15,890 nucleotides of DNA. It comes from a virus. Its lineage: Duplodnaviria > Heunggongvirae > Uroviricota > Caudoviricetes. The translations under genes and the position numbers were made by a program. The notes under the pieces were generated by a model. That model ran no database searches. It had not been told where the DNA came from and saw nothing but the letters and a program-made list of their open reading frames with translations. Positions within the stretch are counted from its first letter, which is position 1, and each line of letters starts with the position of its first letter. The stretch spans positions 1-15,890 of IMG/VR virus record IMGVR_UViG_2681813004_000014; one strand, written 5' to 3'. This document shows positions 1,316 to 15,864 of the stretch, in pieces.

Positions 1316-2529
1316 TCGTCACCGCCCTTACTGTTCTTGCTGATTGTCACTTCCTGCTTCCATGCCTGGCTGAACTCGTCACCACCTTCACGCGGCGGCA
1401 TTCCCTCACGCTCACGGGCTTCGTTCGGATTGATGATCCCGTTCTTAATCCCTTTCTCATACGTGGCGTAACGTTCGGTAGGGGTGGCGCGTAATAAATC
1501 GGCTGAATCAAACTCAACCAGATAACGGGTTCCAGGCACGGGAGAAGCCACCAGCAAAGCGGCCTTGATTTGCTGTTCGAAGTTCGCCAACCAAGGACGC
1601 ATTGTCATGGTCAGAAACGCGCGGCTTGCCTCACTGAAATTGCTGTAGGTGCTGTTGCTGTATTCCTGCAAAAAAATCGGCGAGACGTTGAACATTCGGG
1701 CGATGTCTTCAATGGTAAAGCGACGGGAGGCCAGCCATTCAGCATCCTGATTACTCATGCCCAGCTGCTGATAGCTCATACCCCCTTCAAGGATGGGCGT
1801 TTTTCCGGCGTTTCTGGCCCCTTTGTAGCGTTCCAGTGCGGCTAATGCCTGTTTGCCCTTCACGCCGTCCAGCCATTCGCCTGACGTGATAACCCCTGCC
1901 GCCATCATGCCATCACGCATCACGCTCGCGCCGTGGCGTTGTTGGGCCAGCCCAAGCCCCAGCGATTCGCGGCAGATGGTTACAGGTGAGCGCCCCATAA
2001 AGCCGTCATCCGTGGAGTAACGAAGGTGGAGAACCTCCCACGGTAAATAGTTGCGGGTGTTTCCGGTGTAGGCGTCAGTGATGCAGTAGCGCCAGTTATG
2101 CTCACCTGTCTGCTCCACGTTCACCGACTGCGGCGGGTAAGGATGTAAAGCCACCGGAAAACCATCACGCCCCCACTGAATCACCGCATAAGCATTACCG
2201 TTTAACAGGCAGTGGCGGATCATCATTCGCTTAAACTGGTAGGGGGTTTGCCATGCGTTCGGGCGCTCGTTGAGGATGTGATCGACCGGATGAGAATCAA
2301 GCCACTCGCGGGCCTCCTTCCCCTTCTCATTGCGTACCAGGTACAGGTAACACGGCATGGTAGCCACCGCCTCAGAGATGACCGTCACGGCGTTCATGAC
2401 GGCGGGCAGTGATTCCGCTGTCCCCGATGATACGTACTCACCCGCCCCCGTGTTCGATGTGCCCGCCAGCGCCATAAATTCATCAAGCGTCATGCTGCGC
2501 TGCTCTTTTTTTCTTCTGAAAAGCCACAT
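1312..2529 (-). CDS. Portal protein, HK97 family (copy 1)
   Basis: 405 aa; near-identical to ORF 3552..4760 except the C-terminal tail; immediately upstream of prohead protease. Confidence 0.85.
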   Translation of the reverse strand: MWLFRRKKEQRSMTLDEFMALAGTSNTGAGEYVSSGTAESLPAVMNAVTVISEAVATMPCYLYLVRNEKGKEAREWLDSHPVDHILNERPNAWQTPYQFKRMMIRHCLLNGNAYAVIQWGRDGFPVALHPYPPQSVNVEQTGEHNWRYCITDAYTGNTRNYLPWEVLHLRYSTDDGFMGRSPVTICRESLGLGLAQQRHGASVMRDGMMAAGVITSGEWLDGVKGKQALAALERYKGARNAGKTPILEGGMSYQQLGMSNQDAEWLASRRFTIEDIARMFNVSPIFLQEYSNSTYSNFSEASRAFLTMTMRPWLANFEQQIKAALLVASPVPGTRYLVEFDSADLLRATPTERYATYEKGIKNGIINPNEAREREGMPPREGGDEFSQAWKQEVTISKNSKGGDE

Positions 2530-2530
2530 A

Positions 2531-3103
2531 TCACACCCCCGCTAAATCCACCCACCAGCGGCGATTATCCGCACGCGGCATTTTTTCGGGGTGCTGCTCA
2601 TACAGGGAACGGCGGGCCAGCTCCACGCCGGAATCGGGGTAAGCCGGTACCGATGTAACGGTAATTTCGTACAGTTCCGCCACCAGCACGGTACGAACGC
2701 ATGGATCTGTTGTGGTATCCCATACATCCTTACGGGAGCGAAAGCCAAAGCTCATGCCGGATATATCACCGCGTTTAACCAGTTCGATAACGTCGCGCCC
2801 TGTACTGGTATCCGGTGGGGTCAGTTCAAAGCGTAACCCTGTTTCGTCCTCTTCCAGTTTCAGCGTGCCGGAACGGGTGCGCCCCAGTAACATGCTGTGG
2901 TCATGCTCATACAGGCCGCGAACGTCATTACCCGCCGCAAGCCATTCAGTAAACGCCCCCCGCTGGAATTTTTCGTAAAACTCACCCCATAACAGTTCTG
3001 AAAGCTTATCCCAGCGAACAACGTAGCCCGTCAGCGTACCGGCTCCGCTCGTGGTGATTTCCGATGACCGGATTTCCATACTCTTCATAATTTTTTCACC
3101 CAT
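2531..3103 (-). CDS. Prohead protease, HK97 family (copy 1)
   Basis: 190 aa with DHSMLLGRTRSGTLKL and GMSFGF motifs; identical in protein sequence to ORF 4762..5334. Confidence 0.85.
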   Translation of the reverse strand: MGEKIMKSMEIRSSEITTSGAGTLTGYVVRWDKLSELLWGEFYEKFQRGAFTEWLAAGNDVRGLYEHDHSMLLGRTRSGTLKLEEDETGLRFELTPPDTSTGRDVIELVKRGDISGMSFGFRSRKDVWDTTTDPCVRTVLVAELYEITVTSVPAYPDSGVELARRSLYEQHPEKMPRADNRRWWVDLAGV

Positions 3104-3113
3104 AAAACACTAA

Positions 3114-3131
3114 AGGGGCTTTTAAGCCCCT
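3114..3131 (-). terminator. Hairpin 3' of the capsid-derived ORF (copy 1 of duplicated unit)
   Basis: Inverted repeat aggggct/agcccct with 4-nt loop followed on minus strand by a T-rich run; possible partial terminator or mRNA stabiliser. Confidence 0.3.
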
Positions 3132-3142
3132 TCTGTATGCTG

Positions 3143-3559
3143 TTAATCGTCGTCCTGTGGCAGTTCCAGAATCTTGATCGCGTTCGAATCCACCACGCCA
3201 CCGCCTAAATATTTCTGCGTGAAAATTTTGATGAAGCCCGGCTCTGTGATGTTGTCCGGTCTGGTGCGAACACCTGTTTCGTGATCAACAATGTAGTAAC
3301 CGCGTTTGAAGTCACCCAGGGCAATAACGTTATCAGGCATAAACTCCAGATATTCGACCGGAAGGCCCAGCAACGTATCAGGATCACCCGCCTGTAAACG
3401 GTCGCGCCAGATGTAATCACCGTTCGCGTTCTTCACCTTCTGAAGTTTTGCCGATGACGCGTTTCTTGTATACATTTTCAGAAGTTCGCCTTCTCCGGAA
3501 AAGTCATCAAGGCGAAGATGTGCCCTGACTTCATCAGGTGTAATTTTTTCTTCACTCAT
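3143..3559 (-). pseudogene. Chimeric ORF: gp6-like connector N-terminus (~35 aa) fused in frame to the last ~103 aa of the major capsid protein
   Basis: C-terminal part is identical to the end of capsid ORF 5374..6576; N-terminus MSEEKITPDEVRAHLRLDD resembles the start of connector ORF 684..980; Shine-Dalgarno-like aaggtg sits 6 nt upstream of ATG at 3559. Track ORF extends to 3640 but that region overlaps portal copy 2. Confidence 0.55.
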
Positions 3560-4760
3560 CTTTTTCACCTTTAATTTCCACCGTCTGCTTCCATGCCTGG
3601 CTGAATTCGTCGCCACCTTCACGCGGCGGCATCCCCTCACGTTCGCGGGCTTCGTTCGGATTCATGATCCCGTTCTTAATCCCTTTCTCATACGTGGCGT
3701 AACGTTCGGTAGGGGTGGCGCGTAATAAATCGGCTGAATCAAACTCAACCAGATAACGGGTACCAGGTACGGGAGAAGCCACCAGCAAAGCAGCCTTGAT
3801 TTGCTGTTCGAAGTTCGCCAGCCACGGGCGCATTGTCATGGTCAGAAACGCGCGGCTTGCCTCACTGAAATTGCTGTAGGTGCTGTTGCTGTATTCCTGC
3901 AAAAAAATCGGCGAGACGTTGAACATTCGGGCGATGTCTTCAATGGTAAAGCGACGGGAGGCCAGCCATTCAGCATCCTGATTACTCATGCCCAGCTGCT
4001 GATAGCTCATACCCCCTTCAAGGATGGGCGTTTTTCCGGCGTTTCTGGCCCCTTTGTAGCGTTCCAGTGCGGCTAATGCCTGTTTGCCCTTCACGCCGTC
4101 CAGCCATTCGCCTGACGTGATAACCCCTGCCGCCATCATGCCATCACGCATCACGCTCGCGCCGTGGCGTTGTTGGGCCAGCCCAAGCCCCAGCGATTCG
4201 CGGCAGATGGTTACAGGTGAGCGCCCCATAAAGCCGTCATCCGTGGAGTAACGAAGGTGGAGAACCTCCCACGGTAAATAGTTGCGGGTGTTTCCGGTGT
4301 AGGCGTCAGTGATGCAGTAGCGCCAGTTATGCTCACCTGTCTGCTCCACGTTCACCGACTGCGGCGGGTAAGGATGTAAAGCCACCGGAAAACCATCACG
4401 CCCCCACTGAATCACCGCATAAGCATTACCGTTTAACAGGCAGTGGCGGATCATCATTCGCTTAAACTGGTAGGGGGTTTGCCATGCGTTCGGGCGCTCG
4501 TTGAGGATGTGATCGACCGGATGAGAATCAAGCCACTCGCGGGCCTCCTTCCCCTTCTCATTGCGTACCAGGTACAGGTAACACGGCATGGTAGCCACCG
4601 CCTCAGAGATGACCGTCACGGCGTTCATGACGGCGGGCAGTGATTCCGCTGTCCCCGATGATACGTACTCACCCGCCCCCGTGTTCGATGTGCCCGCCAG
4701 CGCCATAAATTCATCAAGCGTCATGCTGCGCTGCTCTTTTTTTCTTCTGAAAAGCCACAT
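3552..4760 (-). CDS. Portal protein, HK97 family (copy 2)
   Basis: 402 aa; same as copy 1 except a different C-terminal tail (…KQTVEIKGEKDE). Confidence 0.85.
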   Translation of the reverse strand: MWLFRRKKEQRSMTLDEFMALAGTSNTGAGEYVSSGTAESLPAVMNAVTVISEAVATMPCYLYLVRNEKGKEAREWLDSHPVDHILNERPNAWQTPYQFKRMMIRHCLLNGNAYAVIQWGRDGFPVALHPYPPQSVNVEQTGEHNWRYCITDAYTGNTRNYLPWEVLHLRYSTDDGFMGRSPVTICRESLGLGLAQQRHGASVMRDGMMAAGVITSGEWLDGVKGKQALAALERYKGARNAGKTPILEGGMSYQQLGMSNQDAEWLASRRFTIEDIARMFNVSPIFLQEYSNSTYSNFSEASRAFLTMTMRPWLANFEQQIKAALLVASPVPGTRYLVEFDSADLLRATPTERYATYEKGIKNGIMNPNEAREREGMPPREGGDEFSQAWKQTVEIKGEKDE

Positions 4761-4761
4761 A

Positions 4762-5334
4762 TCACACCCCCGCTAAATCCACCCACCAGCGGCGATTATC
4801 CGCACGCGGCATTTTTTCGGGGTGCTGCTCATACAGGGAACGGCGGGCCAGCTCCACGCCGGAATCGGGGTAAGCCGGTACCGATGTAACGGTAATTTCG
4901 TACAGTTCCGCCACCAGCACGGTACGAACGCATGGATCTGTTGTGGTATCCCATACATCCTTACGGGAGCGAAAGCCAAAGCTCATGCCGGATATATCAC
5001 CGCGTTTAACCAGTTCGATAACGTCGCGCCCTGTACTGGTATCCGGTGGGGTCAGTTCAAAGCGTAACCCTGTTTCGTCCTCTTCCAGTTTCAGCGTGCC
5101 GGAACGGGTGCGCCCCAGTAACATGCTGTGGTCATGCTCATACAGGCCGCGAACGTCATTACCCGCCGCAAGCCATTCAGTAAACGCCCCCCGCTGGAAT
5201 TTTTCGTAAAACTCACCCCATAACAGTTCTGAAAGCTTATCCCAGCGAACAACGTAGCCCGTCAGCGTACCGGCTCCGCTCGTGGTGATTTCCGATGACC
5301 GGATTTCCATACTCTTCATAATTTTTTCACCCAT
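4762..5334 (-). CDS. Prohead protease, HK97 family (copy 2)
   Basis: Protein identical to copy 1. Confidence 0.85.
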   Translation of the reverse strand: MGEKIMKSMEIRSSEITTSGAGTLTGYVVRWDKLSELLWGEFYEKFQRGAFTEWLAAGNDVRGLYEHDHSMLLGRTRSGTLKLEEDETGLRFELTPPDTSTGRDVIELVKRGDISGMSFGFRSRKDVWDTTTDPCVRTVLVAELYEITVTSVPAYPDSGVELARRSLYEQHPEKMPRADNRRWWVDLAGV

Positions 5335-5344
5335 AAAACACTAA

Positions 5345-5362
5345 AGGGGCTTTTAAGCCCCT
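5345..5362 (-). terminator. Hairpin 3' of the major capsid gene (copy 2 of duplicated unit)
   Basis: Same inverted repeat as 3114..3131, offset by 2231 bp. Confidence 0.3.
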
Positions 5363-5373
5363 TCTGTATGCTG

Positions 5374-6576
5374 TTAATCGTCGTCCTGTGGCAGTTCCAG
5401 AATCTTGATCGCGTTCGAATCCACCACGCCACCGCCTAAATATTTCTGCGTGAAAATTTTGATGAAGCCCGGCTCTGTGATGTTGTCCGGTCTGGTGCGA
5501 ACACCTGTTTCGTGATCAACAATGTAGTAACCGCGTTTGAAGTCACCCAGGGCAATAACGTTATCAGGCATAAACTCCAGATATTCGACCGGAAGGCCCA
5601 GCAACGTATCAGGATCACCCGCCTGTAAACGGTCGCGCCAGATGTAATCACCGTTCGCGTTCTTCACCTTCTGAAGTTTTGCCGCCGTTGTGGAGTTAAC
5701 CACCCATACCGCGTTCTTGCGGTATTTTTTACGCAATGCAAATTTCAGGTCGATCAGCGGGTCCGCAGATGTCCACGCCAGACCGTGAGCGGGCTTGATA
5801 ACCTGCAACGTTCCGAAGTCGCGTTCTTTGTCGCTCTTCTCTGCACGGGGGACGGATAAAAAGCCTTTTGCTTTTTTGTCACCGTCGCCCACAACCAGAT
5901 CGCTTTCTTCGGTTTCCGTGAAGGTGTCGCCAATCTCGCCCGTCAGCCATGAAAGGATGTCCACATCGGAAAAATCCACGATTTCCTGTGTGGTGCGCGG
6001 GTACGCATAGACCGGATACAGCTTAATGCTCACCTCGTTAATCTTCGGGGTGCTGGTCTGTTCGCGTGCCTTACCCTCTTCACCGTGGTTAACGGTCGCA
6101 CCGCCAGCGGAAACAAGCTGCTTAAACTCGTTGCTGCTGATTTTCTTCACGGTACAGATGCGGCGCATGGTGGATTCATCCGCCAGTATTCGCATGATTT
6201 CGGTGTTCAGTTCGGGGATAACGGTATAACCACCATCAGCGGCAACGCCTGTACTTAATGCGCGGGTTTCACCTGTCAGAATGTAGTTGCGTAGTTCTGC
6301 GGGGTCAGTGGTCTGACTGCTTTTACCTGGCTTGCTGCGCTCTTCGTCTGCAATGGCTTCAAGGCGGGAAATGTCTTTATCGAGGGATTCAGCTTTAGCG
6401 CGTAATTCGTCAAATTTTGCGCCCTCAGCATCGTTAAGACTGCGGTTTTCTTTTTCCGCGTTCTCCAGCATGTCGCGCATCTGATTTTTAATGGCGGTTT
6501 TCTGCTGGCGTAATTCGATTATTCTCGGCATAAAAAAAAGTCCTGGGGTTAAGTAAGGAACTCCAGGACGCGACAA
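5374..6576 (-). CDS. Major capsid protein, HK97 family, with N-terminal coiled-coil delta domain
   Basis: 400 aa; N-terminal heptad-rich segment (IIELRQQKTAIKNQMRDMLENAEKE…) then a capsid-like body. Track start at 6576 is a TTG; an ATG at 6531 (MPRIIELRQQ) is an alternative start. Confidence 0.85.
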   Translation of the reverse strand: MSRPGVPYLTPGLFFMPRIIELRQQKTAIKNQMRDMLENAEKENRSLNDAEGAKFDELRAKAESLDKDISRLEAIADEERSKPGKSSQTTDPAELRNYILTGETRALSTGVAADGGYTVIPELNTEIMRILADESTMRRICTVKKISSNEFKQLVSAGGATVNHGEEGKAREQTSTPKINEVSIKLYPVYAYPRTTQEIVDFSDVDILSWLTGEIGDTFTETEESDLVVGDGDKKAKGFLSVPRAEKSDKERDFGTLQVIKPAHGLAWTSADPLIDLKFALRKKYRKNAVWVVNSTTAAKLQKVKNANGDYIWRDRLQAGDPDTLLGLPVEYLEFMPDNVIALGDFKRGYYIVDHETGVRTRPDNITEPGFIKIFTQKYLGGGVVDSNAIKILELPQDDD

Positions 6577-7543: not shown

Positions 7544-7815
7544 CCGTACGGATCATCGTGCTGGCCTGTCTGTTGTTTTGCCCTGTTCAGTGCGTCAGTA
7601 GCCTGGCCCTGCTGGCCTTTTTTGCCGCCCGGTCGCACTGTCCGCGCACTGATTACGCTGTCTGCGATGACCTGCCAGCCCGTACGGATCATCGTGCTGG
7701 CCTGTCTGTTGTTTTGCCCTGTTCAGTGCGTCAGTGGCCTGGCCCTGTTGACCTTTTTTGCCGCCCGGTCGCGCCGTTCGCGCACTGATTACGCTGTCTG
7801 CGATAACCTGCCAGC
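7544..7815. repeat. Tandem 136 bp duplication (2 copies, a few mismatches) at the 3' end of ssb
   Basis: 7544..7679 and 7680..7815 align at a 136 bp offset with a handful of substitutions. Confidence 0.85.
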
Positions 7816-8086
7816 CCTGCCGCGTTTCGCCGTTCTGGCCTGTCCACTGGCTTACCTGCATGTTACCCGCCACGCTCACCAGTTCGCCTTTCTGGTGTTT
7901 TGCCAGTGCCTCGGCCTGTCTGCCAAACGCCAGGACGGATAACCACATCGTCGCCGTTCCGTCATCTGCCTGGCTGCACGGAAGGGGGACCGCCATACTC
8001 GCCATCGCCATTTGTGTCCCCTTGCTGGTCTGTTTTACCTGCGGGTCAGCCACCAGCCGCCCGTAAGCTGCTATCTGTGCTGTCAT
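7595..8086 (-). CDS. ssb: Single-stranded DNA-binding protein with frameshifted C-terminus
   Basis: N-terminal OB-fold-like region (…TMWLSVLAFGRQAEALAKHQKGELVSVAGNMQVSQW…). The 136 bp duplication is not a multiple of 3, so the ORF ends in an out-of-frame tail; the canonical ending …HDDPYGDGIPF* is present in another frame, stopping at 7526. Confidence 0.7.
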   Translation of the reverse strand: MTAQIAAYGRLVADPQVKQTSKGTQMAMASMAVPLPCSQADDGTATMWLSVLAFGRQAEALAKHQKGELVSVAGNMQVSQWTGQNGETRQGWQVIADSVISARTARPGGKKGQQGQATDALNRAKQQTGQHDDPYGLAGHRRQRNQCADSATGRQKRPAGPGY

Positions 8087-8334
8087 GCTGTCTGCTCTCC
8101 GGTTTTAACGTTGATGGTTGTTACCTGTTCCGCTCCGGCAATCTCCCGTTGTGTCAGCGTGGCAAAGTTTGCCGCCGCTGTGGTCATGAATGCGCTAATC
8201 AGTTCGGGATGCGCTTTCGCGTATCCTTCTCCGGCGTGGCGGTCTATCGTTCTGATTGCCACCTTTAAGGCGTGCTCTGTCATGTCTAACGCTTTATATT
8301 TTGGCGCTGTCTTATCTCTGGTTTTTCTGTTCAT
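8083..8334 (-). CDS. Hypothetical protein (start uncertain: 8364, 8334 or 8283)
   Basis: Track ORF 8083..8364; the 5' part lies inside the iteron array, so a later start is more plausible. Stop overlaps ssb start. Confidence 0.4.
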   Translation of the reverse strand: MNRKTRDKTAPKYKALDMTEHALKVAIRTIDRHAGEGYAKAHPELISAFMTTAAANFATLTQREIAGAEQVTTINVKTGEQTA

Positions 8335-8550
8335 TCCCCACCACTCCCCACTTTTGCTCCCCACTTTTTAAATTCCCCACTTGCTCCCCACCTCGTTTTT
8401 TGAGTGAATGTAATGCTTTGTTTTTCATTGCGTTTTTTACTCCCCACTTTTTTGGATGTATACAGGTGGGAAAGTGGGGAATTATGTTTCAATTTTGTTA
8501 AATTCCCCACTCTCCCCACTTTTACTACCCACTTTTTACAGTGGGTAAAC
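8334..8550. repeat. Iteron array, putative replication origin
   Basis: At least 9 direct copies of (t)tccccac(tttt), inverted copies near 8463-8482, an AT-rich spacer around 8394-8440, and a palindrome tacccac…gtgggta at 8526-8546; directly 3' of the replication gene. Confidence 0.6.
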
Positions 8551-9942
8551 ATCATCCCCATCGACACAAATCACGCCGTCTTTTTCCAGCTTGGACAGCC
8601 AGCGCCGGAAGTGCTTCATCTCATACCCCAGCTTTTTCATATCGTCGCGGAGAAGGGCGATAGTGCATGGCTCTTTGTGTGCCGTCCGCGTTCTGATGCA
8701 CTGCCATAGCGCGGCGTGATTCTCCGATTTGTTGCCTGCTTCCTCGATGCGCTCCAGTTCAGCAGGGGCGCGGGGAACGTCAATCACCACCATAGACACA
8801 ATCTCTTCCCCATCGGTATCGGTAAACACCTCCACGCTTTTAAGGTCGTATGCACTCTCTTTTGGCTCCTCTGCGTCCTTCATCTTCGTACACGCCGCCA
8901 CCAGTGCTGTAACGTCTGAATTTTCCCGGCTGATTCGGTACTCTGCATCAAGCGCGGCACGGAATGCGCTGGAACCACGCGCCCCCTTTGTTTCATCCTT
9001 GCCGGAATGGTGAACCACCAGCACCGTGGCCCCTGTGGCCTGCTTTATCGCGTCACACCCCTGGATAAATGCGCCCATATCACGGGAATCATTTTCATCA
9101 TTCCCACCAAAGCAACGGGCCAGTGTGTCGATCACAATCAGCCGCACATTTTCGCCCGTTCTGCTCTTAACAAGTCCGGCAGTCCTGATAACCTGCTCCA
9201 CATAGTCAGGCGATGCAGGGAAAACAGGCGCGTTAATGATGCACAAATCTGTAACCACCTTGTCGTGGGTTATCTCCCACGCCTTAACGCGGCGTTTTAC
9301 GCCCATACTGCCTTCGCCAGCGATATAGATAACCGCGCCCTTACTCACCCTGCGGCCTCCCCATGCCATACCTGTGGCAACATGGCACGACCAGGAAATG
9401 GCGAGGAACGATTTATAAGAACCGCTGGCCCCGTAGGTGCTGCATAATGACTCAGCCGGAATAAGCCCCTTAATGACGTAGCTTTGCTGCGCGTCGAATC
9501 CCTCAGAACCCCATGAGATGGGAAGCGTGATTTTTCTCTTTCCGCCATTCATGACCAGGCTTTCCCCTCTCTCCCATGTTTCCCGTAGTCGTGGTAGCTG
9601 GTCGCTCCAGTCCTCAAGCAGTTCGAAATTTTCAGAAAGTAGCCGCGCCTCCTGGACTCCGGCGATCGCCAGTTTTGTGGCAATGGTCAGCATCTGCATA
9701 TCGTCCAGGTTTCCGGCGCGTATGACCTTTACCCTGTATCGTCCTTCATCAACAATCTGTAAGTTGTCCAGTTCGCTTAACTGATAACGGCCCAGGTAAA
9801 CCGGAGGGATGGGATCGCCTGCTTTTTTGGCCTGTGCAATCATGTAATGTTCTGCAAAGGAGTGAGCATTATCACCCGCAAAAATAACCGCCTCAGTGTG
9901 TTTATCTTTCGGTAACAGTTTTACGTTCGGTGCAAGTTTCAT
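8536..9942 (-). CDS. Replication protein with RecA/RepA-like P-loop ATPase domain (putative primase-helicase)
   Basis: 468 aa; Walker A-like YGASGSYKSF, Walker B-like RLIVIDTLARCFGGNDEND, then VLVVHHSGKD…RGSSA, as in RepA/AAA_25-type replicative ATPases. Confidence 0.75.
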   Translation of the reverse strand: MKLAPNVKLLPKDKHTEAVIFAGDNAHSFAEHYMIAQAKKAGDPIPPVYLGRYQLSELDNLQIVDEGRYRVKVIRAGNLDDMQMLTIATKLAIAGVQEARLLSENFELLEDWSDQLPRLRETWERGESLVMNGGKRKITLPISWGSEGFDAQQSYVIKGLIPAESLCSTYGASGSYKSFLAISWSCHVATGMAWGGRRVSKGAVIYIAGEGSMGVKRRVKAWEITHDKVVTDLCIINAPVFPASPDYVEQVIRTAGLVKSRTGENVRLIVIDTLARCFGGNDENDSRDMGAFIQGCDAIKQATGATVLVVHHSGKDETKGARGSSAFRAALDAEYRISRENSDVTALVAACTKMKDAEEPKESAYDLKSVEVFTDTDGEEIVSMVVIDVPRAPAELERIEEAGNKSENHAALWQCIRTRTAHKEPCTIALLRDDMKKLGYEMKHFRRWLSKLEKDGVICVDGDDVYPL

Positions 9943-10226
9943 TTCTTACCCCCTGCGACCAGCATTTCACGGATTTTGCGGATATAACTTGCAGCACGTT
10001 TCTGATTAACGGCTTTACGATGGCCCACCAGCGTGAAATCACGCCGGAACTGATAAACAGGCATAACGCAGTCATATTCGTAGCCATCACGGCGGTAAGT
10101 GATGCGCCGTTCCTCCACGCCCTTAATCATTACCGTGCCGCCGTAGTTATCACGGAAAATATCGCCGGGACGGATTTCAGGACGAGCGGGGCCGCTGGCA
10201 TTAACGCCAGAATTTTTATTTTTCAT
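9939..10226 (-). CDS. Hypothetical protein (95 aa)
   Basis: ORF in the early operon with 4-bp overlap to the replication gene; no recognised motif. Confidence 0.5.
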   Translation of the reverse strand: MKNKNSGVNASGPARPEIRPGDIFRDNYGGTVMIKGVEERRITYRRDGYEYDCVMPVYQFRRDFTLVGHRKAVNQKRAASYIRKIREMLVAGGKK

Positions 10227-14461: not shown

Positions 14462-14489
14462 TATCAGATCCTCTTTTCAGTCCTCCAGC

Positions 14490-14640
14490 CTCAAAAAACT
14501 GACCACACAACTGACCACACATTTCGTTGAAGCTCTACGAACAACGACGAACAATAACAAACAAGAAAACGAAACATTCCATTTAATATCAAATACATAT
14601 CCAAACAACCACGAACAACCCCGAACCACAAAAAACACTA
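14490..14640. promoter_or_regulatory. A/C-rich repeat region upstream of int
   Basis: Direct repeat aactgaccacac x2 (14497-14520), multiple gaacaa units, and the 15-mer AACAACCACGAACAA (14604-14618) that also occurs at 6758-6772. Confidence 0.3.
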
Positions 14641-14790
14641 AATGAGAAAATACGGGTATTTCTCAGCCTTCACGCAGAAGGGCACCCCGAGTCGTTTGGT
14701 TGCGATGATAAATCGCAGAGGAGGATGGTAATGTCCAGCGCACGCGTTGTAAACGAGGAAAAACGGCAGTATTACAATCGCGTTAATAAA

Positions 14791-15063
14791 TTATTTGATA
14801 TATGAATCCAGCACCTTCAGAACGACATCCAGATCTTCTTCACGTTTTAGCTCATCCCCCTGGTGAACGATGTGTTCCGTCAGATGACCTTTAATCACTT
14901 CCCGCATCAGACCGTTTACCGCGCCACGGATAGCAGCAATCTGTTGTAAAACTGCAGCGCATTCGTGCGGCTCGTCGAGCATTTTCTTGAGCGCCACGAC
15001 CTGGCCCTGAATCTTACTGGCACGCGCTTTCAGTTTCTGTTTATCACGGATTGTATGAGACAT
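14791..15063 (-). CDS. rcnR: Ni/Co-responsive transcriptional repressor RcnR
   Basis: 90 aa [56 protein letters not shown]… recognised as RcnR; divergent from rcnA. Confidence 0.9.
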
Positions 15064-15111
15064 GGCAACACCTGGTTAACAAGAATATGAAAAATCATAG
15101 CACTATTAATC

Positions 15112-15146
15112 TACTGGGGGGTAGTATCAGGTACTGGGGGGGAGTA
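15112..15146. promoter_or_regulatory. RcnR operator sites in the rcnR-rcnA intergenic region
   Basis: TACT-G6-T-AGTA at 15112-15126 and TACT-G7-AGTA at 15132-15146, matching the established RcnR recognition motif. Confidence 0.75.
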
Positions 15147-15183
15147 GAATCAGATTGCCGAATTAATACTAAGAATTATTATC

Positions 15184-15864
15184 ATGACCGAATTTACAAC
15201 TCTTCTTCAGCAAGGAAACGCCTGGTTCTTCATCCCCAGCGCCATCTTACTTGGTGCGCTTCATGGCCTGGAACCAGGGCACTCAAAAACGATGATGGCG
15301 GCGTTTATCATCGCCATCAAAGGCACCATTAAACAAGCGGTGATGCTCGGACTGGCAGCAACTATTTCGCATACCGCAGTGGTCTGGTTAATTGCCTTTG
15401 GCGGGATGGTGATCAGTAAGCGCTTTACTGCTCAATCAGCAGAACCGTGGCTCCAGCTGATTTCCGCAGTGATCATTATTAGCACCGCGTTCTGGATGTT
15501 CTGGCGTACCTGGCGCGGCGAACGCAACTGGCTGGAGAATATGCACGGGCATGATTATGAGCATCATCATCACGATCACGAAGATCACCACGACCATGGA
15601 CATCATCACCATCACGAACATGGCGAGTATCAGGATGCCCATGCACGAGCCCATGCCAATGATATTAAACGACGCTTTGATGGTAGAGAGGTCACCAACT
15701 GGCAAATTTTGTTATTTGGCTTAACAGGTGGTCTTATCCCCTGTCCGGCAGCAATTACCGTGCTGTTGATTTGCATTCAGTTGAAAGCCCTGACACTGGG
15801 CGCAACACTGGTCGTCAGTTTCAGCATTGGCCTGGCGGGTAATGCTGCCAACTTACTGATTTAG
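15184..15864 (+). pseudogene. rcnA: Nickel/cobalt efflux protein RcnA, interrupted by IS1
   Basis: N-terminus and His-rich loop (HGHDYEHHHHDHEDHHDHGHHHHHEHGEYQDAH) match RcnA; after …SFSIGLA the reading frame runs into IS1 terminal sequence and stops early (226 aa, shorter than intact RcnA). Confidence 0.85.

What the first reader, a model, noticed from the sequence alone, without database searches (positions are those of the whole stretch)
8334..8550. Dense iteron array 3' of the replication gene: putative origin
At least nine direct repeats of tccccactttt, plus inverted copies, an AT-rich spacer and a terminal palindrome, lie directly after the replication ATPase gene. This is the arrangement of iteron-type origins in satellites and plasmids. 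Part of the array overlaps the annotated 5' end of the next small ORF, which makes that ORF's longer start doubtful.
Basis: partly seen in the sequence, partly recalled or inferred. Interest (0 to 1): 0.45.

Follow-up and report, generated by a model that had tools for sequence, protein, structure and literature searches.

The report
Satellite island replication origin with iterons
The repeat cluster is almost certainly the replication origin of a phage-satellite island (a capsid-forming PICI), read by a DNA-binding domain at the end of the neighbouring helicase; this layout is already known for such islands, and what is new is a one-amino-acid, one-base matching rule between helicase and repeats.

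Summary
Window 8335-8547 is a 213-bp non-coding stretch between the stop codon of a RepA-family helicase gene (8536-9942, minus strand) and the ATG of a small ORF (8334). It holds nine direct copies and two to three inverted copies of the core TCCCCAC. There are two AT-rich spacers and a 40-bp inverted pair centred on TGTATACA.

The island carries int, alpA, rep, ssb, perC, and capsid, protease and portal genes, so it is a capsid-forming PICI. Gram-negative PICIs are already known to place an iteron origin directly 3' of rep (PMC6092414).

About 60-70 related loci across Enterobacterales keep the same architecture while the repeat sequence changes. The variable base of the iteron (GTGNGG) tracks one residue, H444, at the start of the third helix of a predicted C-terminal winged-helix domain of Rep. 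The pairings are H or K with G, N with A, and S with C: 70 loci concordant, none discordant, at least 10 switches. Two E. coli elements whose last 45 Rep residues differ only by H/N carry GTGGGG versus GTGAGG throughout.

Verdict: the cognate Rep-binding origin, supported by comparison but not by experiment. It is a new member of a known kind. Interest is moderate.

The parts
8536..9942 (-). rep: 468-aa RepA-family (RecA-fold, SF4-like) helicase, the putative initiator
8539..8730 (-). Coding region for the C-terminal domain (aa 405-468), predicted winged helix; the H444 codon is 8611-8613
8504..8532 (+). rep-proximal iteron set: three direct copies (8504-8510, 8513-8519, 8526-8532 TACCCAC)
   Evidence: The same set of 3-4 copies follows the stop codon in related loci.
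8527..8546 (.). Terminal palindrome over the rep stop codon (8536-8538); probably incidental
   Evidence: Present in the window and L001, absent in L083-L087.
8481..8503 (.). AT-rich spacer 1; locally the least stable duplex
   Evidence: The least stable 20-mers within 8250-8620 start at 8479-8486: -20.3 kcal/mol against a window mean of -27.2, sd 2.7.
8441..8480 (.). Core palindrome: two iterons in inverted orientation (8441-8447 and 8474-8480, plus a degenerate copy at 8465-8471) around TGTATACA (8457-8464)
   Evidence: Found 40-58 nt after the rep stop in about 58 of 77 loci, with nearly fixed length (40 or 42 bp). The arms are 98.7% complementary and two arm positions change on both sides. 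It occurs once per locus, only at this place.
8392..8440 (.). AT-rich spacer 2 (49 bp), the candidate unwinding region
   Evidence: GC 0.34-0.38. The equivalent spacer in 61 loci has median length 55 nt and median GC 0.31, against 0.48 for whole loci.
8335..8391 (+). Distal iteron set: five direct copies (8335, 8345, 8358, 8374, 8385), the last abutting the ATG of the next ORF
8083..8334 (-). Small ORF (83 aa from the ATG at 8334, PHROG 1231), function unknown; not part of the origin but marks its boundary
   Evidence: A homologue sits in the same place after the validated EcCICFT073 ori. It is absent in L088 and L091.
7595..8086 (-). Island-encoded single-strand DNA-binding protein, a likely replication accessory
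   Evidence: Pfam SSB, E=2e-16.

Best explanation
Window 8335-8547 is the replication origin of a capsid-forming phage-inducible chromosomal island.

Proposed mechanism: after induction, the island's Rep protein binds the 7-11-bp iterons (AAAGTGGGGA in the rep sense) through its C-terminal winged-helix domain. Rep is a RecA-fold hexameric helicase of the RSF1010 RepA family. Residue H444, at the N-terminus of the third (recognition) helix, reads the fourth base of GTGGGG.

Rep molecules would load on three proximal and five distal direct iterons and on a 40-bp inverted pair around TGTATACA. They would open one of the adjacent AT-rich spacers (8392-8440 or 8481-8503) and load themselves as the replicative helicase, with no DnaA and no separate loader. 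The island SSB and the host replisome would complete replication.

What is shown here: the repeats, their non-coding nature, the conserved architecture, and the residue-to-base co-variation. What is inferred: binding, melting, self-loading, and that replication starts here.
For: Repeat statistics.

Island identity: int, AlpA, DUF4222, Rep, SSB, PerC, capsid, protease, portal, connector and HNH genes.

Published rule: PICI origins lie immediately 3' of rep, with two iteron sets around AT-rich DNA, and the EcCICFT073 rep-ori fragment supports plasmid maintenance (PMC6092414). EcCICFT073 has the same gene order with its own iterons at the same place.

Enrichment: in 69 related loci the class 6-mer occurs at 18.4 per kb in the 330 nt after the rep stop, against 0.35 per kb elsewhere, a 53-fold difference.

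Conserved layout despite different iteron sequences.

Co-variation: Rep K-x-F residue against iteron base gives H-G 11, K-G 29, N-A 23, S-C 7, with no discordant locus, and at least 10 switches on the helicase-core tree. This was predicted and then confirmed within E. coli. L089 versus L088/L091 have identical last 45 residues except H/N, and every iteron, including both palindrome arms, is GTGGGG versus GTGAGG.

C-terminal domain: predicted with high confidence and matches winged-helix folds.

Other readings excluded for this stretch: no frame stays open across the array in relatives; no sigma-70 promoter or intrinsic terminator; no DnaA box in the array; no Rfam family.

Episomal relative: a relative with the same cassette is deposited as a 16,971-bp circular episome, pKp_Goe_795-4.
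Against: There is no experimental evidence for this replicon type. Nothing on it was found in the searchable literature.

The Rep C-terminus and the array are less than 100 bp apart, so part of the co-variation could reflect co-inheritance of a linked cassette rather than direct contact.

The AT-rich spacers are easy to melt locally but are not the least stable DNA in the window.

The window's Rep lacks the recognisable zinc-ribbon and TOPRIM primase motifs of the roughly 700-aa relatives, so how priming occurs is open.

About 20 of the 87 loci examined showed no clear array.
Confidence: 0.8

Rival explanations
1. The array is a Rep-binding site cluster whose main role is control rather than initiation. 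It might act in copy-number handcuffing, as a roadblock, or in regulating read-through from rep into the downstream ssb/perC/capsid genes. Replication would then start elsewhere, or depend on the helper phage.
For: Iterons in plasmids serve both initiation and control (established knowledge). The array lies inside a co-directional operon with no terminator or promoter, and its last iteron abuts the next start codon. In the published test, deleting the EcCICFT073 ori reduced but did not abolish colonies.
Against: The two-sets-plus-AT-rich layout is the one shown to be an origin in SaPIs and EcCICFT073. No second iteron cluster or core palindrome exists elsewhere in the window or in the 7-kb loci. 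The downstream gene differs between relatives while the array is kept.
Confidence: 0.1
2. The array is a packaging recognition site (cos/pac-type repeats bound by the island's small terminase).
For: The island makes its own capsids and has an HNH/terminase-type packaging module. Terminase small subunits often bind short repeated sites (established knowledge).
Against: The repeat sequence co-varies with Rep, not with packaging genes. The same array follows rep in relatives with quite different downstream morphogenesis genes. It also follows the roughly 700-aa primase-helicase forms in Xenorhabdus, Serratia and Pectobacterium.
Confidence: 0.03
3. The repeats are bound by another island protein (AlpA, the DUF4222 protein or the small ORF product), or they form a DNA hairpin signal. 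On this reading the link with Rep residue 444 is only genetic linkage.
For: The CTD codons and the array are physically adjacent. As single-stranded DNA the core palindrome can form a 10-bp stem (-8.4 kcal/mol, z = -2.65).
Against: There is no discordant locus among 70, across at least 10 switches. The co-varying residue sits at the start of the predicted recognition helix. The small ORF is absent in L088 and L091, which keep the array. The same iteron variant is used in the direct copies, which a hairpin does not explain. The 20-nt interior of the palindrome is not self-complementary.
Confidence: 0.05

Closest known systems
Origins of Gram-negative PICIs, e.g. EcCICFT073 (Fillol-Salom et al. 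2018, PMC6092414)
   Same: The array lies immediately 3' of the initiator gene. Two iteron sets flank AT-rich DNA. The gene order is identical (DUF4222, rep, about 200-290 bp intergenic, PHROG-1231 small ORF, ssb), and the island type is the same (int, alpA, perC).
   Different: The initiator is a RepA-family RecA-fold helicase rather than the 'DNA primase family protein' of EcCICFT073. The iterons are GTGGGGA rather than GTCTACC/GGTAGA. This replicon type has not been tested experimentally. I could not see Fig. 2a of that paper, so I cannot exclude that it already draws iterons of this type.
SaPI ori and Rep self-loading helicases (Ubeda 2007; Qiao et al. 2022, PMC9371898)
   Same: There are 6-12 short iterons just downstream of rep and a central AT-rich region. 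The initiator is a helicase with a C-terminal winged-helix domain that reads the iterons. Specificity is cognate, and no loader or DnaA is needed.
   Different: SaPI Reps are SF3 AAA+ helicases, whereas this one is RecA-fold/SF4-like. In SaPIs the iterons on the two sides point in opposite directions. Here nearly all copies are co-directional, with one conserved inverted pair.
Satellite phage P4 alpha protein with ori/crr (from my own knowledge)
   Same: It is an enterobacterial satellite with a multidomain primase-helicase and a C-terminal origin-binding domain that recognises short octamer repeats.
   Different: P4 alpha has an SF3 helicase, and P4 needs a second site (crr). No second cluster exists here.
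RSF1010/IncQ replicon and T7 gp4-type primase-helicases
   Same: The helicase core is homologous to RSF1010 RepA. The roughly 700-aa relatives carry a zinc ribbon and TOPRIM ahead of the helicase, as in T7 gp4 (read by eye).
   Different: In IncQ plasmids a separate protein (RepC) binds 20-bp iterons, and RepA has no DNA-recognition domain. T7 gp4 has no origin-binding domain.

Membership tests
PICI/SaPI-type replication origin | Lies immediately 3' of the replication initiator gene of an int-alpA/stl-rep island | tested here: met
   The array begins at the rep stop codon. int, alpA and rep are all on the minus strand.
PICI/SaPI-type replication origin | Multiple short iterons in two sets flanking an AT-rich region | tested here: met
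   There are 3 proximal and 5 distal direct copies plus the inverted pair, with spacers of GC about 0.3.
PICI/SaPI-type replication origin | Iterons on the two sides of the AT-rich region point in opposite directions (the SaPI rule) | tested here: inconclusive
   Only one or two copies are inverted. They form a pair with one direct copy across TGTATACA, and the two large sets are co-directional.
PICI/SaPI-type replication origin | Iterons are specific to the cognate Rep | tested here: met
   Comparative evidence only: residue 444 against iteron base, 70 concordant and 0 discordant.
PICI/SaPI-type replication origin | A rep-ori fragment drives autonomous replication | not testable with these tools
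   The only indirect hint is that a relative with the same cassette is deposited as a 17-kb circular record.
Capsid-forming PICI (cf-PICI) | int, regulator, replication module and its own HK97-type capsid, protease, portal, connector and HNH/terminase genes, without tail or lysis genes | tested here: met
   int, AlpA, Rep, capsid, S78 protease, portal, head completion, connector and HNH genes are present. The terminases lie beyond the window edge. They are annotated in related islands.
Iteron plasmids (pSC101, R6K, RK2 type) | 17-22-bp iterons bound by a WH-WH Rep initiator, with DnaA boxes and DnaA/DnaB-DnaC dependence | tested here: not met
   The repeats are 7-11 bp. No DnaA box lies in the array. 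The initiator is a helicase.
IncQ (RSF1010) oriV | Separate RepC iteron-binding protein, RepA helicase and RepB' primase, with ssiA/ssiB signals | tested here: not met
   Only the helicase core is shared. The recognition domain is fused to the helicase. No RepC or RepB' homologue was found among the island ORFs scanned.

The most novel reading that the evidence does not exclude
This family of RecA-fold initiator helicases may define replication specificity (and so compatibility between co-resident satellites) by a near single-residue code at the N-cap of a winged-helix recognition helix: H or K for G, N for A, S for C. The conserved 40-bp inverted iteron pair around TGTATACA may be the site where two hexamers assemble head to head. 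That would make it a bacterial-satellite analogue of the paired initiator sites of SV40 or papillomavirus origins, built on a different helicase superfamily from SaPI Rep and P4 alpha.
Probability: 0.3. Interest if true: 0.55.

Novelty: new member of a known kind. Interest (0 to 1): 0.4.

Why it matters
The result pins down the cis-acting origin and the likely recognition determinant of a replicon found in at least 637 of 5,426 complete E. coli genomes and across Enterobacterales.

The residue-to-base rule predicts which satellites can cross-replicate or compete. It offers a one-mutation specificity-swap experiment (H444N). It also gives a compact rep-ori cassette for engineering satellites.

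For annotation, it shows that ORFs called across the array are spurious (for example the 82-aa calls in L089 and L090, or the 93-aa GTG start at 8364).

It does not change the general picture of how PICIs replicate.

Tried and rejected
- DnaA boxes: none in the array, and the window total is no higher than the shuffle expectation.
- Sigma-70 promoter and intrinsic terminator scans of 7900-9000: none found.
- Rfam and tRNA scans of the window: nothing.
- Coding potential across the array: no frame is consistently open in 69 loci.
- Terminal palindrome as a functional element: rejected because it is not conserved.
- Second iteron cluster (P4 crr-like): none. The GTGGGG count outside the array (7 in 15.6 kb) is about what I calculate for a random 6-mer on both strands (about 7.6), and the core palindrome occurs only once.
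- Near-identical DNA in the phage collection: no match.
- Single-sequence AF2: unusable, pLDDT 41. Foldseek on the whole model returned only RecA-fold hits.
- Sequence and profile searches of the C-terminal and N-terminal domains against Pfam and PDB: nothing significant.
- Literature searches for the iteron sequence, for RepA-type PICI replicons and for DUF4222: nothing specific.
- Duplex-stability scan: the spacers are only locally the least stable DNA, not the least stable in the window.

Full report
**What is in the sequence.**
The stretch 8335-8547 lies between two minus-strand genes. Upstream is a 468-aa ORF (8536-9942). Downstream is a small ORF whose conserved start is the ATG at 8334.

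The core TCCCCAC occurs eight times on the + strand and once on the - strand within 8335-8519, and nowhere else in the window. For YCCCCAC there are 13 matches against 3.97 expected, and 0 of 200 shuffles reach 13. A ninth direct copy is TACCCAC at 8526. The longer unit TCCCCACTTTT is exact only four times.

Read in the sense of the upstream gene, the order is as follows:
- the stop codon, overlapped by a 20-bp palindrome;
- three direct iterons (AAAGTGGGGA type);
- a 23-bp AT-rich spacer;
- an inverted iterons pair enclosing TGTATACA, that is, one inverted iteron with a degenerate neighbour, the TGTATACA centre, then one direct iteron;
- a 49-bp AT-rich spacer;
- five direct iterons, the last abutting the next ATG.

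GC falls to 0.34-0.38 inside the array, against about 0.55 in the flanks.

**What the element is.**
The upstream protein has an AAA_25 domain. It matches the RSF1010 RepA hexameric helicase by sequence and by fold.

The window also encodes, on the minus strand:
- a tyrosine integrase and AlpA;
- a DUF4222 protein, an SSB and PerC;
- an HK97-type capsid, an S78 protease, a portal, a head-completion protein, a connector and an HNH protein.

The host genes rcnR and rcnA flank the island beyond the integrase. This is the gene set of a capsid-forming PICI. Related islands occur in many E. coli genomes: 637 of 5,426 carry at least 80% of window 8084-9100.

**What is already known.**
Fillol-Salom et al. 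(PMC6092414) reported that Gram-negative PICIs carry the origin immediately 3' of rep, as two iteron sets flanking an AT-rich region. They showed that the EcCICFT073 rep-ori segment supports plasmid maintenance.

I fetched EcCICFT073. It has the same gene order: DUF4222, initiator, a 288-bp intergenic region, a homologue of the same small ORF, then ssb. Its initiator, however, is a primase-family protein, and its iterons are GTCTACC/GGTAGA. SaPI Reps are self-loading helicases whose C-terminal winged-helix domain reads 5-6-bp iterons just downstream of rep (PMC9371898). The finding therefore belongs to a known kind.

**Comparative test.**
A scan of one genome per species returned 80 loci with Rep relatives of 51-65% identity across Enterobacterales.

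- **Repeats after the stop.** In most of them, the 300 nt after the stop codon carry 4-9 direct copies and 1-3 inverted copies of a short word. The word differs by lineage: GTGGGGA, GTGAGGA, GTGGGGG(A) or GTGCGGC.
- **Enrichment.** The lineage-specific 6-mer is 53-fold enriched in that segment relative to the rest of the loci.
- **Layout.** The arrangement is conserved. The inverted pair has a nearly fixed length of 40 or 42 bp, with a (T)GTATA(T/C) centre, and starts 40-58 nt after the stop. It is found in 66 of 87 regions.
- **Palindrome arms.** In an alignment of 51 distinct cores, 98.7% of arm positions are complementary. The two variable positions change on both arms together (C-G 29, T-A 16, G-C 6 and C-G 23, T-A 22, G-C 6) with no mismatch, and 0 of 500 shuffles reach this.
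- **Uniqueness.** The core occurs once per locus, only after rep.
- **Non-coding.** No reading frame stays open through the array.

**Link to the protein.**
Positions that sort by iteron class cluster at residues 440-454 of Rep. In the motif K-x-F-x-R-W-L, the residue x (H444 in the window) pairs with the fourth base of GTGNGG as follows:

| Residue x | Iteron base N | Loci |
|---|---|---|
| H | G | 11 |
| K | G | 29 |
| N | A | 23 |
| S | C | 7 |

No locus is discordant. There are at least 10 switches on a tree built from the helicase core alone.

I used this as a prediction inside E. coli, where both KHF and KNF proteins exist. The KHF loci (L001, L083, L084) have GTGGGG, and the KNF/KNM loci (L085-L087) have GTGAG(G/T).

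The cleanest case is L089 against L088 and L091. Their last 45 Rep residues are identical except for H/N. Every iteron, both palindrome arms included, is GTGGGG in the first and GTGAGG in the other two.

**Caveats.**
- The CTD codons and the array are adjacent, so some of the association could be linkage.

**Mechanism proposed.**
Rep binds the iterons through its winged-helix domain and oligomerises on the two direct sets and the inverted core. It then opens an adjacent AT-rich spacer and loads itself as the helicase. SSB is encoded two genes downstream.

No DnaA box is present. There is also no promoter, terminator or known RNA that would explain the array otherwise.

A K. pneumoniae relative with the same cassette (KSF class, GTGCGGC iterons, same layout) is deposited as a 16,971-bp circular 'plasmid'. 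That record is in fact a cf-PICI-like element. This is compatible with episomal replication but does not prove it.

**Rivals.**
- A mainly regulatory role for Rep binding, with initiation elsewhere, cannot be excluded without origin mapping (about 0.1).
- A packaging site is unlikely, because the array follows rep regardless of the downstream morphogenesis genes.
- A site for another protein is unlikely, because the co-varying residue is in Rep.
- A hairpin signal is unlikely, because the direct copies share the same variant and the interior of the palindrome is not self-complementary.

**Verdict.**
In kind, this is the already described PICI origin. In detail, it is an undescribed member, as far as the searchable literature shows. 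It has a RecA-fold initiator, a conserved 40-bp inverted core, and a simple residue-to-base specificity rule that one point mutation could test. Interest is moderate.

Noticed in passing
window 1343-3400 vs 3574-5631: There is a tandem duplication with a 2,231-bp period. Portal (1312-2529 and 3552-4760) and prohead protease (2531-3103 and 4762-5334) are each present twice, and a 3' capsid-gene fragment (3143-3640) repeats the end of the capsid gene 5374-6576. Identity is about 100% over roughly 1600-3400. It is either a real recent duplication or an assembly artefact.
   Followed up: partly
L004 4020-4440 (Xenorhabdus beddingii): Two complete origin-like arrays lie in tandem after one rep gene. 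The first has GTGAGG iterons, cognate to the adjacent KNF-class Rep. The second has (G/A)TGGGGA iterons, with its own 38-bp core palindrome and AT-rich spacer. It is the only such case among 82 loci scanned. It could be an orphan origin, or a way to use the Rep of another element.
   Followed up: partly
window 9538-9942 (-), Rep residues 1-135: The N-terminal domain of Rep is 46-59% identical to the N-termini of otherwise different initiators on Klebsiella and Arsenophonus plasmids (DUF927, P4-family primase, DUF5906; H80-H89). It is replaced by other N-termini in most Rep relatives. It has no Pfam or PDB sequence match. It looks like a shuffled module of unknown role, possibly TOPRIM-like.
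   Followed up: partly
L093 (CP018459.1, pKp_Goe_795-4, 16,971 bp): This record is deposited as a K. pneumoniae plasmid, but it is a cf-PICI-like element: integrase, DNA-binding regulator, Rep homologue with iteron origin, capsid, head-tail adaptor and terminases. One gene is annotated as a tape measure protein.
   Followed up: partly
window 8083-8334 (-): The 83-aa ORF (PHROG 1231, unknown function) is conserved directly after the origin in both RepA-type and primase-type PICIs, including EcCICFT073. It is absent from some RepA-type elements. Its start codon abuts the last iteron, and the G-rich iterons upstream may double as its ribosome-binding site.
   Followed up: no
L089 2573-2821, L090 1647-1895; window 8331-8567 (-): Gene callers place an ORF of about 80 aa across the iteron array, on the rep strand, in public assemblies. 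It is not conserved as an open frame and is almost certainly spurious.
   Followed up: yes
L094 529-852 (E. coli TUM1886), and H2 (strain HNSQ2209): The closest relatives differ by insertions next to the origin. One has an extra 108-aa ORF between the small ORF and the array. In the other, an IS5-family element is annotated under the two-piece match to window 8000-10000; its exact position relative to the array was not checked.
   Followed up: no
window 14462-15864: The island is integrated next to rcnR (14791-15063, -) and rcnA (15184-15864, +). No tRNA is present in the window. The attachment site was not located.
   Followed up: no
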